DNA of 64,000 nt, from the IMG/VR virus record IMGVR_UViG_3300017707_001811, positions 37,573 through 101,572 of that record. The stretch is one strand, 5' to 3'. Position 1 is the first letter of the stretch, and the number at the start of each line of letters is the position of its first letter. This stretch comes from a virus (Duplodnaviria; Heunggongvirae; Uroviricota; Caudoviricetes). Shown piece after piece: positions 579-63,320 of this stretch. Below the pieces are notes generated by a model. The model saw nothing but the letters and a program-made list of their open reading frames with translations, was not told where the DNA came from and did no database searches. A program made the translations under genes and the position numbers.

Positions 579-3011
579 ATGATGTCACTAAGAATTAAAA
601 AACGTAGCGGTGAAGACGCTTCCTTTAACCCGCAGAAAATTTATAATAGAATTAAGAGAGCCTCAAAAGGTCTTAACGTTAATTCTGATGAAATTTTTAT
701 TAAAGTAATAACCTCAGTACCAACTGAAGGTGTAATAACTACAAAAGAATTAGATAAGTTAATTTATGAAATTGCCGCGGCATTTACAGGTAGTCATCAT
801 GATTATTCTAGACTAGCTTCCTCAGTCGCTATCTCATCTTATCATAAAGAAACAGACTCAAGTTTCTCAAATGTAATGCATACTTTACATGTTGACGGAA
901 TCATTAATGATAAGTTAATGGAGATAATTGAAAACTATGGTCCGTCAAATATTGATAATATTATTAATCATGATAATGACTATAACTTTGATTATTTTGC
1001 TTGGCGTTCATTACAAGAGATGTATCTTTTAAAATTACCAAATGGTAAAGTAGTTGAAAGACCCCAACACATGTATATGCGTGTCGCTCTTTGGATTACA
1101 AAATCATTTGAGGAGGCAGTTGAATATTATACTGCGTTATCTGAACAAAGAATTTCTCCCGCAACACCAATAATGATTAATGCGGGAACAAAAGTTCCAC
1201 AGTTAGCTTCTTGTGTTTTAAAATATAATGATGAAGATTCTCGTAAAGGTCTATTAGATACTATGAGAGATATATCTACTTACTCTTCAGATGCCGCAGG
1301 TATTGGACTTTGCATGTCAAATATTCGTAGTAAAGAAAGTAGAATTAATTCATCAGGTGGATTTGCAGGTGGTTTATTAAAGTATTTGAAGATTGTTAAC
1401 GAGTCACTTCGTTTCTTTAATCAACAAGGTCGTAGACCAGGTTCTGCGGCAATCTATTTGGAACCTTGGCATAAAGATATCTTTGATTTGTTAGATATTA
1501 AAAAGAACACAGGTGCTGAGGAATTAAGAGCTCGTGATTTGTTTACCGCACTTTGGATTCCCGATAATTTCATGAGAGCGGTTAAGAATAATGAAGATTG
1601 GTATTTGTTCTGTCCTAATGATATTAAGAAATCTGGTATTAAAGCATTACAAGAGTGTTATGGGGATGAATACGAATCTAACTACAATAAGGCTGTTGAA
1701 TTAGGTATCGGTAAAAAAGTTAAGGCTCAAGAAATTTGGAATAAAATTATTGAATCTCAGATTGAAACAGGAGTTCCTTACTTATGTTCTAAAGATAATG
1801 CTAACAAAAAGACCAACCATCAAAATATAGGTGTAATCAAACAATCAAATCTTTGTAATGAGATTTACCAATATACTGACGAAGATACTACTGCAATCTG
1901 CACATTATCATCTATGGTATTAAAAAACTTTGTTAAGGATGGAGAGTTTGACCACAAATTACTATATGAAGAAACTCGTAAAGTAGTTAGAGCGTTAAAT
2001 AAAGTTGTTGATATTAACAACTACTCAACAGAAAAAGGATTGAAAGGTGGATTAGCTCAAAGAGCAATTGCTATTGGAACTCAAGGACTTGCGGACGTAT
2101 TTTATTTGATGGATTATATCTTCACATCTGATGAAGCTCGTAAGTTGAACAAAGACATTTTTGAAACAATTTATTTCGCAGCAATCACTGAAAGTAATAA
2201 ATTGTGTATTGATGGATTATACCAACCGTACTCTCACTTTGAAGGGTCACCAATGTCACAAGGAGTATTCCAATTTGATATGTGGGGATTGAAAGAAGAT
2301 GAGTTATCAGGAAGATGGCCTTGGGGAATTCTTAAACAAAATGTTAGTAAGTATGGTGTTTGTAACTCATTATTCACGGCTCAAATGCCTGTTGCATCTT
2401 CAGCTAAGATTACAGGGTCATATGAAATGACTGAACCAGCTCACTCAGCTATTTTTAACAGACGTGTGGTTGGTGGTGAGATTATGATTGTTAACAAATA
2501 CTTGATTAACGACTTTGAAAAAATTGGAATTTGGTGTGAGGATTTGAAGAACGAAATCATTATGAACGAAGGTTCAATCCAAAACATCAACTTCAATAAC
2601 TACCTTGACCAAGAAGATAAGAAGTACAATTCAAAAGTTAAAAGAATTGAACACTTGATTAACAAGTATAAAACAATTTGGGAAATCTCACAAAAGTCAT
2701 TGATTGAAATGGCCGCAGACAGAGCTCCGTTTATTGACCAATCACAATCAATGAATATCTATATGGGTAACCCAACATTGTCAAAGATTTCATCATCACA
2801 TTTTTACGGATGGGAAAAGGGATTAAAAACACTTTGTTATTATGTTAGAACAAAGGCAATCTCAACAGGAGCGAAACATTTGGCGGTTGACATCTCAAAA
2901 GTACAAAAACCAAATCCAACACCTGAACCACCAAAGGTAGATTACTCTTATATGAATTTACCTCCAAAACCTGAAAATAGTGAATTTGATTGTTTTGGAT
3001 GTTCATCTTAA
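579..3011 (+). CDS. nrdA: Ribonucleotide reductase class Ia alpha subunit with N-terminal ATP-cone
   Basis: ATP-cone-like start (IKKRSGEDASFNPQKI), SPATP, ASC, NLCNEI catalytic loop, MPVASS, LCYY tyrosine pair and C-terminal CFGC. No intein or intron evident. Confidence 0.97.
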   Translation: MMSLRIKKRSGEDASFNPQKIYNRIKRASKGLNVNSDEIFIKVITSVPTEGVITTKELDKLIYEIAAAFTGSHHDYSRLASSVAISSYHKETDSSFSNVMHTLHVDGIINDKLMEIIENYGPSNIDNIINHDNDYNFDYFAWRSLQEMYLLKLPNGKVVERPQHMYMRVALWITKSFEEAVEYYTALSEQRISPATPIMINAGTKVPQLASCVLKYNDEDSRKGLLDTMRDISTYSSDAAGIGLCMSNIRSKESRINSSGGFAGGLLKYLKIVNESLRFFNQQGRRPGSAAIYLEPWHKDIFDLLDIKKNTGAEELRARDLFTALWIPDNFMRAVKNNEDWYLFCPNDIKKSGIKALQECYGDEYESNYNKAVELGIGKKVKAQEIWNKIIESQIETGVPYLCSKDNANKKTNHQNIGVIKQSNLCNEIYQYTDEDTTAICTLSSMVLKNFVKDGEFDHKLLYEETRKVVRALNKVVDINNYSTEKGLKGGLAQRAIAIGTQGLADVFYLMDYIFTSDEARKLNKDIFETIYFAAITESNKLCIDGLYQPYSHFEGSPMSQGVFQFDMWGLKEDELSGRWPWGILKQNVSKYGVCNSLFTAQMPVASSAKITGSYEMTEPAHSAIFNRRVVGGEIMIVNKYLINDFEKIGIWCEDLKNEIIMNEGSIQNINFNNYLDQEDKKYNSKVKRIEHLINKYKTIWEISQKSLIEMAADRAPFIDQSQSMNIYMGNPTLSKISSSHFYGWEKGLKTLCYYVRTKAISTGAKHLAVDISKVQKPNPTPEPPKVDYSYMNLPPKPENSEFDCFGCSS

Positions 3012-61640: not shown

Positions 61641-61700
61641 ATAAAAAAATTACTAAATAAATTATTAGGTGTAAAGTTTAATAGAATAATATTTATAATT

Positions 61701-62102
61701 ATGAAATTAATATATTCTTTAAGTTCTTTAATAACTGAAAAAAAAATTGGTGAACTACAAGATACTGTATATATAAATTATGTATTACAACATACACCAA
61801 GTAGTAAACACGGAATTTTCAGAAAAAAAAGACACGAGAAAGAAGACGGAGGAGAAAGAATTACCGATTATCATATATTAGAGTTATGTAAAAAGGCAAA
61901 AACTAACATAACCCAATATATTGTTATGGGTGAAATAATTGACGGAGTTAGATTTATAGTATCATCTAAAGAATTTCCTTTTTTAAATATTGTAATTAAC
62001 CCACAAGAAAACTCACCATTTGATTGGACATTAACAGTTGTTACTGTAATGAACAAAGAAGATTTTAATATTGGTAGAAATCAATTACAAATTTTCATAT
62101 AA
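61701..62102 (+). CDS. Hypothetical protein with possible RelE/BECR-like RNase features and head-targeting leader
   Basis: TATTTATA at 61690; ATG 61701; leader ending LITE; KHG..RK.R and C-terminal VVTV. Confidence 0.45.
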   Translation: MKLIYSLSSLITEKKIGELQDTVYINYVLQHTPSSKHGIFRKKRHEKEDGGERITDYHILELCKKAKTNITQYIVMGEIIDGVRFIVSSKEFPFLNIVINPQENSPFDWTLTVVTVMNKEDFNIGRNQLQIFI

Positions 62103-62138
62103 AGAAAAACCCCCGATGTATTCTGACAACGAGGGTTT
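62101..62138 (-). terminator. Intrinsic terminator (probably bidirectional)
   Basis: Minus strand AAACCCUCG-U-UGU-cagaau-ACA-U-CGGGGGUUU followed by UUCUUU; on the plus strand followed by tctttttc. Confidence 0.75.
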
Positions 62139-62250
62139 AATCTTTTTCACTTAATTAAGTTGAGGCTTCCGCCCCTGAACATCATCGTGGTTCAGTTCCG
62201 CCGAGTTCTTGTAAGGGAATATCTCGGTTCAACCCTTCATATAATTTCGA
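62101..62250 (-). ncRNA. Candidate structured ncRNA (four-way junction, GNRA tetraloop)
   Basis: GC-rich non-coding island with four complementary helices, an upstream TAnnTTTG box and a downstream terminator; no known family recognised. Confidence 0.6.
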
Positions 62251-62253
62251 TTA

Positions 62254-62261
62254 CAAATATA
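62254..62261 (-). promoter_or_regulatory. Bacteroidota -7 promoter element TATATTTG
   Basis: Matches TAnnTTTG and points into the ncRNA candidate; no clean -33 TTTG seen. Confidence 0.45.
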
Positions 62262-62319: not shown

Positions 62320-62457
62320 ATGAAACAGGAAACATTACCACTTAACATACGACATGTTGCTCAAATAGTAAGACGTAACATGATTACAAAAACAGTACCA
62401 TCAGGTAAAGTTTACTCACGTAAGAAATCTAAGAAGGTTGACATCTACCAAGATTAG
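62320..62457 (+). CDS. Small basic protein, 45 aa (not in ORF track)
   Basis: MKQETLPLNIRHVAQIVRRNMITKTVPSGKVYSRKKSKKVDIYQD, stop TAG. Confidence 0.6.
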   Translation: MKQETLPLNIRHVAQIVRRNMITKTVPSGKVYSRKKSKKVDIYQD

Positions 62458-62466
62458 GATTATTTT
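62438..62466 (+). promoter_or_regulatory. sigma70-type promoter candidate for dam
   Basis: TTGACA-17 nt-TATTTT upstream of ATG 62481. Confidence 0.5.
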
Positions 62467-62480
62467 TTTATAAAAAAAGT

Positions 62481-63320
62481 ATGCTCTCATATATAGGCGG
62501 TAAAAGTAAAATTGGTAAATGGATAGTACCGTATTACCCAAAAGACATGGAAACATATGTAGAGACATTCGGAGGAATGTTTTGGTGTTTCTTTAATATG
62601 GATTTAAAACAATATCCAAATCTTAAAAGAGTTGTTTATAACGACTTTAATCCTTTAAATTATAATTTATTTATGTGTCTTCAGAACCCTGGCGTTCTAC
62701 TGTCTGCGGTTAATAGAATTCCTTGCCAACAACAAGGAGTTGAGGAGACACCTCCAATCTACCGAGAACAGTTTAACACATTCCAAAAAGAAATATTTGG
62801 GGATGGGTTTACTATAAACTATCCTGATTATGATGTCGCCGCAAAATACGCATATGTCTTAACACAAGTATTCAGCGGGTCCAAACCTGAAACTAGTTCC
62901 TTTATTGATTTGAAGGGTAAGTATAAATCAAAATACCTTACATTTAGAGACAAATTATCTAAACCTGAATGGGTAGAACATTTTAACAGAATATCTCATT
63001 TTAGAATTGGGGATTTTGAAGATGTGATTAAAGAATTTGATAGCCCAACAACTTATTTTTATCTTGACCCACCGTATTGGAAAACTGAAAATTATTATTC
63101 TAATCACGATTTTGACAGAGATGACCACGAAAGACTTGCAAATTGTTTAAAAAATATTGAAGGAAAGTTTTCGTTATCTTATTATGATTTTGTACTTTTA
63201 CACGAGTGGTTTCCCGAAGATAAATATAGATGGGAGAAAAAAGAATTTGCTAAAGCCGCGGCAGCAAAAAAAGGTAAATCACAAAATATGGGAGAAGAAC
63301 TATTAATAATGAATTATTGA
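62481..63320 (+). CDS. dam: DNA adenine methyltransferase, Dam/D12 family
   Basis: YIGGKSK, YVETFGG, YND and YLDPPY motifs. Confidence 0.88.
   Translation: MLSYIGGKSKIGKWIVPYYPKDMETYVETFGGMFWCFFNMDLKQYPNLKRVVYNDFNPLNYNLFMCLQNPGVLLSAVNRIPCQQQGVEETPPIYREQFNTFQKEIFGDGFTINYPDYDVAAKYAYVLTQVFSGSKPETSSFIDLKGKYKSKYLTFRDKLSKPEWVEHFNRISHFRIGDFEDVIKEFDSPTTYFYLDPPYWKTENYYSNHDFDRDDHERLANCLKNIEGKFSLSYYDFVLLHEWFPEDKYRWEKKEFAKAAAAKKGKSQNMGEELLIMNY

What the first reader, a model, noticed from the sequence alone, without database searches (positions are those of the whole stretch)
62101..62261. Unrecognised four-way-junction ncRNA with its own promoter and terminator
Seen, minus strand: GAAGG GUUG A A CCGAG auauucccuuacaagaa CUCGG cggaa CUGAAC cacgaugau GUUCAG GGGC GGAA GCCU CAAC uu. 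The helices are closing GUUG/CAAC, CCGAG/CUCGG, CUGAAC/GUUCAG and GGGC/GCCU capped by a GNRA tetraloop. The 5' AAGGG is complementary to CCCUU in the first loop, giving a possible pseudoknot or alternative fold. The element is far more GC-rich than its surroundings, and its only ATG is followed by a stop at codon 4. It is preceded by a TAnnTTTG box (62261-62254) and followed by a strong terminator, predicting a ~145-nt transcript. It does not fit tRNA, hammerhead, twister, SRP or the riboswitch consensuses I know. Inference: a functional phage small RNA, possibly a ribozyme, a protein decoy or an antitoxin.
Basis: partly seen in the sequence, partly recalled or inferred. Interest (0 to 1): 0.78.

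Follow-up and report, generated by a model that had tools for sequence, protein, structure and literature searches.

The report
New phage RNA paired with nuclease-like gene
A large freshwater phage carries a gene for a roughly 147-base folded RNA of no catalogued family, and this RNA always travels with a neighbouring gene whose protein looks like an RNA-cutting toxin, so the two probably work as a pair.

Summary
The element is real. Window 62101-62261 (minus strand) holds a GC-rich island (51% against about 27%), a TATATTTG -7 box, a structured core and a hairpin plus U-tract terminator. Rfam 15 and ARAGORN find nothing. I collected 19 distinct homologues from IMG/VR and metagenome contigs. 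Sixteen of those are G.U pairs that exist only on the minus strand, and the helices have been rewritten many times. A 5'-GGG:CCC-loop pseudoknot has one compensatory case (CGGU:ACCG). The GNRA loop is not conserved. 'Only ATG' is wrong.

The key new result is gene linkage. The RNA always sits beside one 128-135-aa protein family, here 61701-62102 (+). The protein has no Pfam or PHROG match and a weak RelE/HigB/RegB/colicin-like fold signal. The flanking genes differ between phages, and both RNA and protein are absent together from three complete relatives.

Best reading (about 0.4): the RNA is the cognate regulator or antidote of that RNase-like protein, probably by binding it. The core has no antisense match to the mRNA beyond the shared terminator. 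Expression could not be tested. An automated 2023 catalogue of phage RNA candidates could not be checked.

The parts
62254..62261 (-). -7 promoter box TATATTTG (Bacteroidota sigma-A type TAnnTTTG). Predicted TSS is about 62249.
   Evidence: locates it. A TA(T/A)(A/C)TTT(G/A) box sits 16-18 nt before the GGG in every homologue. The E and I types also have TTTG 19 nt upstream. In Flavobacterium johnsoniae the G of the box lies at -5 (PMC6847099).
62233..62237 (-). 5' strand of the pseudoknot (AAGGG)
   Evidence: It is complementary to CCCUU at 62217-62213. GGG:CCC is kept in 18 of 19 variants. Type G has CGGU:ACCG instead.
62228..62232 (-). Linker UUGAA; 5' strand of the doubtful helix P1 (UUGA/UCAA)
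   Evidence: It is invariant except in type C (UCAA), where P1 cannot form. No covariation.
62201..62227 (-). Hairpin P2 (CCGAG/CUCGG). Its 17-nt loop holds the pseudoknot 3' strand CCCUU (62217-62213).
   Evidence: Eleven sequence variants, all fully paired; all 8 pairs show changes on both sides in the E/G/I/J set.
62196..62200 (-). Junction J2/3, CGGAA (consensus CGNNA)
   Evidence: Unpaired in every variant, with CG and A invariant.
62175..62195 (-). Hairpin P3 (CUGAAC/GUUCAG); loop CACGAUGAU with the conserved ACGR motif
   Evidence: Eight stem variants, all paired. The loop motif ACGA or CCGG is kept.
62163..62174 (-). Hairpin P4 (GGGC/GCCU, loop GGAA), directly abutting P3
   Evidence: The outer pair occurs as G.U, A-U, G-C, U-A and C-G in different variants. 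The loop is not conserved.
62149..62160 (-).
   Evidence: Ten stem variants, all paired; 6 of 6 pairs show changes on both sides.
62101..62148 (-). A-tract, terminator hairpin (62135-62110) with apical loop GUCAGAAUAC (62127-62118), and U-tract. The terminator is bidirectional and shared with the convergent gene.
   Evidence: The stem covaries while the loop is invariant in types A, B, E, G, H and I. The same loop sits on a 5' hairpin in type F and occurs twice in type J.
61701..62102 (+). Convergent partner gene (P0001/P0010, 133 aa), with a TATTTAT box at 61690-61696
   Evidence: It is adjacent to the RNA in every locus that holds the RNA. No Pfam or PHROG family. Weak RelE/BECR-like fold signal.

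Best explanation
Window 62101-62261 (minus strand) is an independent gene for a structured RNA of about 147 nt that belongs to no catalogued family.

Anatomy, 5' to 3': a Bacteroidota-type -7 box; a short leader; a 5' GGG strand that pairs with CCC in the loop of hairpin P2 (an H-type pseudoknot); junction CGNNA; hairpins P3 and P4 stacked end to end; hairpin P5; an A-tract; and a bidirectional terminator whose apical loop GUCAGAAUAC is itself conserved.

The RNA forms a mobile two-gene module with the neighbouring gene 61701-62102 (+). That gene encodes a 133-aa protein with a RelE/HigB/RegB/colicin-like (BECR) RNase-type fold prediction.

Most likely mechanism (inferred, not shown): the RNA is made early by host RNA polymerase and acts as the cognate regulator or antidote of that RNase-like protein. 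The protein gene carries a different box (TATTTAT, near-leaderless). The RNA probably acts mainly by binding the protein through its folded core and/or the GUCAGAAUAC hairpin, which would be a type-III-like logic. Kissing of the complementary terminator hairpins of the two convergent transcripts may contribute.

My odds: real structured RNA about 0.93; functional partnership with the neighbouring protein about 0.8; antidote or regulator role about 0.4.
For: Structure. In 16 representative variants, P2-P5 give 320 of 320 standard pairs on this strand, 16 of them G.U. Only 304 would pair on the opposite strand. On the E/G/I/J alignment, 96.8% of cells are paired, 18 of 25 pairs change on both sides, and the covariation score is 0.456, against 0.156 in shuffles (0 of 500 reach it) and 0.10 or less when partners are slid. 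The A-D set gives the same picture. A model built only from types A-D finds types E, G, I and J at E from 1e-4 to 1e-10.

Linkage. All 30 IMG/VR loci with a protein relative at 30% identity or more belong to contigs that carry the RNA; 17 of 17 searched with the model hit within about 150 nt, and the rest were found by pattern. The same holds on ENA, Logan and JGI contigs.

Mobility. The flanking genes differ: MTase, sigma factor, DnaJ-like, glycosyltransferase, amidase. In type J the core RNA sits on the other side of the protein gene and is divergent from it.

Co-absence. Three complete relatives of about 300-320 kb have neither RNA nor protein.

Protein fold. The AF2 model has pLDDT 77 and a beta-alpha-alpha-beta4 order. 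Top Foldseek PDB hits are HigB2, RelE, YoeB and RegB at E 0.09-1.5. In the VIA-align search most of the top 50 are RelE/ParE/YafQ/BrnT, CdiA-CT, RegB or colicin E5/D, at Z 3-5.1. The nearest named ESM-Atlas clusters are DUF4258, scores 0.83-0.84. E13, H37 and R44 are invariant and H45 nearly so.

Promoter classes. The RNA has TAnnTTTG; the protein gene has (A/T)TATTTAT 4-5 nt before its ATG.

No antisense. The core has no complementarity to the protein's mRNA beyond shuffles, which favours action in trans or on the protein.
Against: The RNase assignment is weak. Foldseek E-values are all 0.09 or higher and VIA Z-scores 5.5 or lower, a range the tool itself calls uninformative. The conserved His/Arg stretch has pLDDT below 50. 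Pfam and the DUF4258 HMM give nothing. Toxicity is not shown.

The sequences fall into only about seven deep lineages, so the shuffle statistics overstate independence.

Pseudoknot support rests on one lineage (type G). More distant protein relatives have shorter, unrelated convergent RNA units (L142, L159, L160) or none at all (L192-L201), so the core is not obligatory for the protein family. In one contig (P0027, no DNA available) the gene is directly overlapped by a downstream gene, so the RNA may be missing there.
Confidence: 0.42

Rival explanations
1. The RNA is a trans-acting phage sRNA or decoy that acts on a host factor or on other RNAs. It might, for example, sequester a host protein, or base-pair through the C/A-rich P2 loop or the ACGR loop of P3. 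On this view the neighbouring protein gene is linked only because the two share a terminator and move together.
For: The gene has a host-type promoter and its own terminator. It has conserved single-stranded motifs: CCC with an A/C-rich loop, ACGR, and CGNNA. It has no complementarity to the neighbouring mRNA. The genome is rich in other RNA genes and RNA-repair genes (earlier notes; not tested here).
Against: The linkage to one protein family persists through changes of flanking genes and through a change of side and orientation in type J. RNA and protein are also absent together. That is hard to explain by a shared terminator alone.
Confidence: 0.2
2. The folded core is a riboswitch-like sensor, and the terminator is its expression platform. 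Binding of a ligand or protein would decide whether transcription stops or reads through. In most types read-through would make antisense RNA across the protein gene. In type J it would continue into a downstream membrane-protein gene in sense.
For: The layout is promoter, multi-helix domain with conserved junction bases, then terminator. Several pairings exclude one another: the 5' GGGU can pair with the P2 loop, with the bases after UCAA, or with the AACCC of the terminator's 5' strand (sequence inspection). In type J a gene follows in sense.
Against: The terminator is strong and also serves the convergent gene. No conserved anti-terminator was shown. GGG/CCC complementarity to a GC-rich terminator is trivial. 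The type J terminator is unrelated to the others.
Confidence: 0.13
3. The RNA is an obligatory subunit of a ribonucleoprotein formed with the neighbouring protein, acting as a guide, scaffold or specificity factor rather than as an inhibitor.
For: The linkage evidence is the same as for the best explanation. Hairpins with CAGAAU or CAGAUA hexaloops recur, twice per RNA in types E, G, I and J, which could seat a protein dimer.
Against: Protein relatives without the core RNA exist, as do fusions of the domain to large proteins. There is no variable guide-like segment with matching targets.
Confidence: 0.12
4. The RNA is a self-cleaving ribozyme.
For: It has a compact multi-helix fold with a pseudoknot and conserved junction bases.
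Against: No hammerhead, twister, twister-sister, pistol, hatchet, hairpin or HDV model matches even at E<=10. No conserved bases flank a plausible cleavage site. It is a single-copy stand-alone gene with no repeat or rolling-circle context.
Confidence: 0.04
5. This is not an RNA gene. It would be a DNA-level site (origin, recombination or packaging site) or a chance GC island.
For: There is no expression evidence.
Against: Sixteen G.U pairs work only on one strand, there are many compensatory changes, and the promoter box and terminator are conserved.
Confidence: 0.02

Closest known systems
par (Fst RNA I / RNA II) type I toxin-antitoxin loci of Enterococcus plasmids and chromosomes (PMC7472228)
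   Same: Both have convergent promoters and a shared bidirectional intrinsic terminator, so the two transcripts end in complementary stem-loops (for par; here). The mRNA-sense loop GUAUUCUGAC contains a YUNR-like CUGA, by my reading of the sequence.
   Different: The 'toxin' here is a 133-aa soluble protein, not a roughly 33-aa membrane peptide. There is no second complementary region over the translation start, and the mRNA looks near-leaderless. The RNA is about 147 nt with a covarying multi-helix core, against about 40 nt for RNA II.
Type III toxin-antitoxin systems (ToxIN, CptIN, TenpIN; e.g. PMC8860590, PMC5772629)
   Same: In both, an endoribonuclease-like protein is genetically coupled to a non-coding, pseudoknotted RNA, and the RNA plausibly neutralises the protein by direct binding.
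   Different: The RNA here is not a tandem repeat array. It is transcribed from its own promoter, convergently or divergently, rather than upstream in the same operon. The protein fold hints point to RelE/BECR, not the ToxN/AbiQ type; that family assignment is from my own knowledge.
RelE/ParE-BECR fold RNases, including phage T4 RegB (PDB 2hx6), HigB2, YoeB, BrnT and colicin E5/D nuclease domains
   Same: The order of secondary structure elements and the best structural matches of the neighbouring protein agree with this fold. Invariant Glu/His/Arg residues are present.
   Different: There is no sequence-level match to any Pfam, PDB or PHROG family. An extra N-terminal helix is present. No protein antitoxin gene lies beside it.
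Rfam 15 families and the automated catalogue of 8,495 IMG/VR candidate structured RNAs ('DNAVirus_X', PMC10690425)
   Same: That catalogue was mined from the same kind of data (IMG/VR intergenic regions with covariation), so it may already list this motif or part of it.
   Different: No Rfam family matches. The catalogue's alignments are not held here, so overlap could not be checked. According to the text read, it names no function or protein partner.

Membership tests
Any Rfam 15 family (including SRP, tmRNA, riboswitches, small ribozymes) | Covariance-model score at or above the family's gathering cut-off | tested here: not met
   One search gives 0 matches in the whole window. In one search the best match is 23.3 bits against a cut-off of 50 (ohsC), and it covers only the terminator.
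tRNA / tmRNA | Cloverleaf or tmRNA recognised by ARAGORN | tested here: not met
   One search finds 0 genes in the window.
   The 3' strand UCAA is invariant. The 5' strand is UUGA in most variants but UCAA in type C, giving two central mismatches. In type G the G-C pair becomes U.C. No change on both sides is seen.
   The loop is GGAA only in types A and B. It is AAAA in C, AAAC in D, and a 7-nt UGAAAUU-type loop (two positions vary) in E, G, H, I and J.
Structured RNA (generic) | Helices supported by compensatory changes on one strand | tested here: met
   P2-P5 give 320 of 320 standard pairs, 16 of them G.U. 18 of 25 pairs change on both sides, and the covariation score is 0.456 against 0.156 in shuffles.
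H-type pseudoknot (5' GGG with the P2 loop CCC) | Complementarity kept, with compensatory change | tested here: inconclusive
   GGG:CCC is present in 18 of 19 variants with variable flanking pairs. One lineage (G) has CGGU:ACCG. In one search one of the 4 pairs changes on both sides. This is a single evolutionary event.
Bacteroidota sigma-A promoter | -7 box TAnnTTTG (TAHHTTTG) with a -33 TTTG about 19 nt upstream | tested here: inconclusive
   The -7 box is present and conserved at a fixed distance in all types. A -33 TTTG at 19 nt is present in types E and I but not in the window's copy. The bare box is not enriched in the window. No TSS data.
Intrinsic (bidirectional) terminator | GC-rich hairpin followed by a U-tract on both strands | tested here: met
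   Searches show CCCUCG...CGGGGG followed by U5CU3 on the minus strand, and an A-tract giving CUUUUUCAC on the plus strand directly after the protein gene's stop at 62102. It is not listed because its loop is longer than 8 bases.
Type I TA, par-like | Small hydrophobic toxin peptide | tested here: not met
   The partner is a 133-aa protein with a mixed alpha/beta fold prediction.
Type I TA, par-like | Second RNA-RNA complementarity covering the toxin's translation start | tested here: not met
   Duplex energies of the sRNA core against the mRNA or its start region do not differ from shuffles.
Type I TA, par-like | Convergent transcription with a shared bidirectional terminator | tested here: met
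   This holds in all types except J.
Type III TA (ToxIN-like) | Antitoxin made of tandem RNA repeats upstream of the toxin in the same operon | tested here: not met
   There are no tandem repeats in the RNA. It has its own promoter on the opposite strand.
RelE/ParE-BECR RNase superfamily (for the partner protein) | Significant sequence or profile match (Pfam clan members, DUF4258) | tested here: not met
   Searches give no hit. One search gives no PDB sequence hit at E<=10.
RelE/ParE-BECR RNase superfamily (for the partner protein) | Shared fold | tested here: inconclusive
   Foldseek E-values are 0.09-1.5 with TM 0.3-0.4. VIA Z-scores are 3-5.1, but most top rows come from this superfamily. 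The ESM-Atlas neighbours are DUF4258 at 0.83-0.84, below the 0.9 level the tool treats as more than a lead.
RelE/ParE-BECR RNase superfamily (for the partner protein) | RNase activity or toxicity | not testable with these tools
   This needs expression and cleavage assays.

The most novel reading that the evidence does not exclude
The module is a new kind of protein-RNA toxin-antitoxin-like pair carried by lytic jumbo phages. A BECR/RelE-fold ribonuclease would be held in check, or aimed, by a single-copy, pseudoknotted, multi-helix RNA made from a host-type early promoter. The conserved GUCAGAAUAC hairpin, which loosely resembles an anticodon stem-loop, would serve as a docking site or substrate mimic. 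If so, RelE-fold RNases would have an RNA antidote, and the phage would have a timed RNA-degrading weapon.
Probability: 0.2. Interest if true: 0.85.

Novelty: new variant of a known kind. Interest (0 to 1): 0.64.

Why it matters
If confirmed, this adds a well-supported structured RNA family, with five covarying helices including a candidate pseudoknot, to the few phage-encoded non-coding RNAs that have a clear genetic partner. It would link RelE/BECR-fold nucleases to an RNA partner rather than a protein one. That combination is not part of the current toxin-antitoxin types as I know them. The module is small enough for direct tests: a 133-aa protein and a 147-nt RNA. It also shows how uncultured jumbo phages of Bacteroidota-like hosts may separate early host-type promoters from phage-type ones. 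If the RNA turns out to be a decoy or a sensor instead, it is still a new fold worth probing.

Tried and rejected
RNA family and gene finders
- Rfam at gathering score and at E<=10: only terminator noise.
- ARAGORN: nothing.

Searches for relatives
- blastn of the locus and tblastn of the protein against 50,697 deposited phage genomes: no match, so no cultured relative.
- Exact-pattern scans of IMG/VR and JGI metagenomes found only close variants. The wider family came from the protein neighbour instead.
- The rest of the own 185-kb record holds no second copy.

Expression

Partner protein annotation
- Pfam, PHROGs and PDB sequence searches, and the DUF4258 HMM: nothing.
- Pfam on fused relatives showed only cytidylyltransferase-like or UPF0227 parts elsewhere in those proteins.

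RNA model behaviour
- Model R2 (E clade) does not reach types A-D at E<=0.001, whereas R1 (A-D) does reach the E, G, I and J types.
- Whole-record searches of five relatives with R1 were empty even for the record known to hold type E6. That search is therefore informative only for A-D-like copies.

Ideas considered and dropped
- A small protein-coding gene: no conserved frame.
- SRP-like GGAA hairpin: no model match, and the topology differs.
- Antisense regulation of the divergent 45-aa ORF and MTase: that pair occurs widely without the RNA.

Not attempted
- Complex prediction, because it takes no RNA chain.
Full report
**1. What is in the window**

Read on the minus strand, 62261-62101 contains these parts in order:
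- TATATTTG (62261-62254).
- An 18-nt spacer.
- GGG UUGAA.
- Hairpin P2 (CCGAG/CUCGG).
- CGGAA.
- Hairpin P3 (CUGAAC/GUUCAG).
- Hairpin P4 (GGGC-GGAA-GCCU).
- CA, then hairpin P5 (ACUUA/UAAGU).
- GAAAAAG and a GC-rich hairpin followed by U5CU3.

GC reaches 0.51 in a genome region of 0.14-0.33. The single-sequence fold is modestly better than shuffles (z = -2.7).

The window is part of a 185-kb IMG/VR virus record, estimated 63% complete. Complete relatives are about 295-322 kb, so this is a jumbo phage.

No Rfam 15 model matches, and ARAGORN finds no tRNA or tmRNA.

Neither that frame nor any other is conserved in homologues.

**2. Homologues and structure**

DNA patterns and a covariance model built from the first four sequence types (R1) found only close variants in IMG/VR and JGI metagenomes. 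The family widened when I followed the convergent protein gene instead.

I ended with 19 distinct RNA sequences in about seven deep types (A, B, C, D, E1-7, G, I1-2, J), plus a truncated type H.

R1 contained only types A-D. It still recognises the other types:

| Type | Score (bits) | E-value |
|---|---|---|
| G | 35.6 | about 6e-7 |
| J | 47.2 | 8e-10 |
| E and I | 25-31 | 1e-5 to 3e-4 |

In 16 representative variants, all 320 base-pair cells of P2, P3, P4 and P5 are standard pairs. Sixteen are G.U, which would be A.C on the other strand, so the RNA strand is the window's minus strand.

- P2 has been completely rewritten several times: CCGAG/CUCGG, CUUAAU/AUUAAG, CUUGAU/AUCAAG, UUGGUUAA/UUAACCAA and derivatives, UCGGUUAA/UUAAUCGA, UUGACAA/UUGUCAA.
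- The outer pair of P4 occurs as G.U, A-U, G-C, U-A and C-G.
- P5 has ten stem versions.

On the model-based alignment of the E/G/I/J set:
- 96.8% of cells pair.
- 18 of 25 pairs show changes on both sides.
- The covariation score is 0.456, against 0.156 in column shuffles (0 of 500 reach it) and 0.10 or less when partners are slid.

The A-D set gave 94.6% paired and 0.359 against 0.206, even though P2 is shifted by one position in types C and D in that alignment. The lineages are few and related, so these figures describe consistency rather than giving a probability.

**3.

The proposed closing helix (GUUG/CAAC) never covaries. Its 5' strand is UCAA in type C, which is the commonest type (over 25 contigs), and that leaves two central mismatches. 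In type G its G-C pair becomes U.C.

The same G belongs to the GGG that can pair with CCC in the P2 loop. In type G both partners changed together (CGGU with ACCG). I therefore favour the pseudoknot and treat P1 as unproven.

The GGAA loop is not a conserved GNRA. It is AAAA, AAAC, or a 7-nt UGAAAUU-type loop elsewhere.

The conserved unpaired bases are the UUGAA linker, CGNNA between P2 and P3, ACGR in the P3 loop, and CAA(C/U) after P4.

**4. Promoter and terminator**

A bare TAnnTTTG match is not above chance in this AT-rich window (96 found, 113 expected). However, a TA(T/A)(A/C)TTT(G/A) box lies 16-18 nt before the GGG in every type. Types E and I add a TTTG 19 nt upstream, which makes the full Bacteroidota -33/-7 pattern (consensus from PMC6847099).

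With the G of the box at -5, the TSS falls near 62249 and the RNA is about 147 nt.

The terminator is bidirectional. The stop codon of the plus-strand gene ends at 62102, directly against it.

Its stem covaries (CCCUCG, CCCCAC, CCCAC, UCCCAU and others), yet its apical GUCAGAAUAC is invariant in types A, E, G, H and I, with one base changed in B. The same loop caps a 5' hairpin in the shorter RNA of type F, and it occurs twice in a small second unit in type J. A terminator loop kept this strictly is unusual and suggests a sequence-specific role.

**5. The partner gene**

Every RNA copy lies next to a member of one protein family of 128-135 aa. In the window this is 61701-62102 (+). In most types the RNA and the gene converge.

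The other flanking genes differ between types:
- A 45-aa ORF plus a Dam-type methyltransferase in types A-D.
- A sigma factor, a 100-aa ORF and an amidase in type E.
- A glycosyltransferase, a DnaJ-like gene and others elsewhere.

In type J the core RNA sits on the other side of the gene and is divergent from it. The spacer is 25 nt and overlaps the gene's own promoter box. The 5' half of that RNA is identical to type B and its 3' half is E-like.

Three complete relatives carry the same methyltransferase but lack both the RNA and the protein. One has only a distant protein relative and no RNA.

More distant protein relatives have shorter, unrelated convergent RNA units behind a TAnnTTTG box (L142, L159, L160), or none at all.

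All protein genes carry (A/T)TATTTAT 4-5 nt before the start codon. This is a different box from the RNA's and a near-leaderless layout.

**6. What the protein may be**

There is no Pfam, PHROG or PDB sequence match.

A profile search finds 288 representative clusters. These include copies of the domain at the C-terminus of 300-1000-aa phage proteins.

The AF2 model (pLDDT 77) has helix-strand-helix-helix followed by a four-stranded sheet.

The weak fold hits point the same way:
- Foldseek's best PDB rows are HigB2, RelE, YoeB/ParE and T4 RegB, at E 0.09-1.5.
- In the VIA-align search most of the top 50 are RelE/ParE/YafQ/BrnT toxins, CdiA-CT nucleases, RegB and colicin E5/D, at Z 3-5.1.
- The nearest named Atlas clusters are DUF4258.

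Each line is below the level the tools call reliable. Together they make a RelE/BECR-type RNase fold the leading guess and no more.

**7. Mechanism**

- The core RNA has no complementarity to the partner mRNA beyond shuffles and no tandem repeats. It therefore fits neither a par-type antisense RNA nor a ToxI-type repeat array.
- The linkage survives a change of side and orientation. This argues for action through the gene products rather than through overlapping transcription.
- I therefore favour an RNA that binds and controls the RNase-like protein, with the complementary terminator hairpins as a possible extra contact between the two transcripts, as in par (PMC7472228).
- The rivals are an independent decoy or regulatory sRNA, a sensor that controls read-through, an RNP subunit, and, least likely, a ribozyme.

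**8. Novelty and limits**

No Rfam family matches and no cultured phage carries the module. An automated catalogue of 8,495 unnamed IMG/VR candidates exists (PMC10690425), but its alignments are not available here.

Earlier notes of this scan on the same genome had already flagged the neighbouring gene as RNase-like and noted the two promoter motifs. I re-examined both points here.

Nothing shows expression, binding or toxicity.

Noticed in passing
window 62320-63320 (+): A very basic 45-aa ORF (MKQETLPLNIRHVAQIVRRNMITK...) is directly followed by a D12-class Dam methyltransferase. The methyltransferase recurs in over 500 IMG/VR contigs, and where I looked the small ORF precedes it. A TATCTTTG box ends 5 nt before the ATG. 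The small ORF matches no family.
   Followed up: partly
L006, L018, L021, L030, L055, L059, L063 (about 2500-3000, minus strand): Relatives that lack the RNA and protein module carry other genes on that side of the methyltransferase: a DnaJ C-terminal-like gene and a roughly 55-aa ORF with a CxxC motif and one hydrophobic helix.
   Followed up: no
window 61690-61696 and the equivalent sites in L019, L033, L028, L140, L145-L147, L157: (A/T)TATTTAT lies 4-5 nt upstream of the start codon of every partner-protein gene. It is a candidate phage-specific promoter giving near-leaderless mRNAs, and it is distinct from the host-type TAnnTTTG box of the RNA.
   Followed up: partly
L174:1046-1145 (-) and L174:1570-1660 (-): The type J locus splits the RNA functions. 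A recombinant core RNA (5' 35 nt identical to type B, 3' half E-like) lies upstream of the protein gene and is divergent from it. A separate small unit downstream holds two hairpins with the GUCAGAAUAC loop.
   Followed up: partly
P0081-P0178: The partner-protein domain also occurs as the C-terminal ~120 residues of 230-1030-aa phage proteins. Some of these have cytidylyltransferase-like or UPF0227 parts.
   Followed up: partly
L142:900-1030, L159:540-660, L160:1120-1210 (minus strands): More distant relatives of the protein are followed by shorter convergent units of about 70-100 nt. Each has a TAnnTTTG box and a terminator, but none has the core fold.
   Followed up: partly
window 62180-62185 (-): ATGATG inside the P3 loop opens a 12-codon frame (MMFRGGSLNLIK). 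It is present only in this phage's copy.
   Followed up: yes
own genome C1:109388 (window coordinate 71816, beyond the window): This is the only other GTCAGAATAC in the 185-kb record. It lies inside a perfect 7-bp palindrome (TTTGTCA...TGACAAA). About 0.35 chance matches are expected.
   Followed up: no
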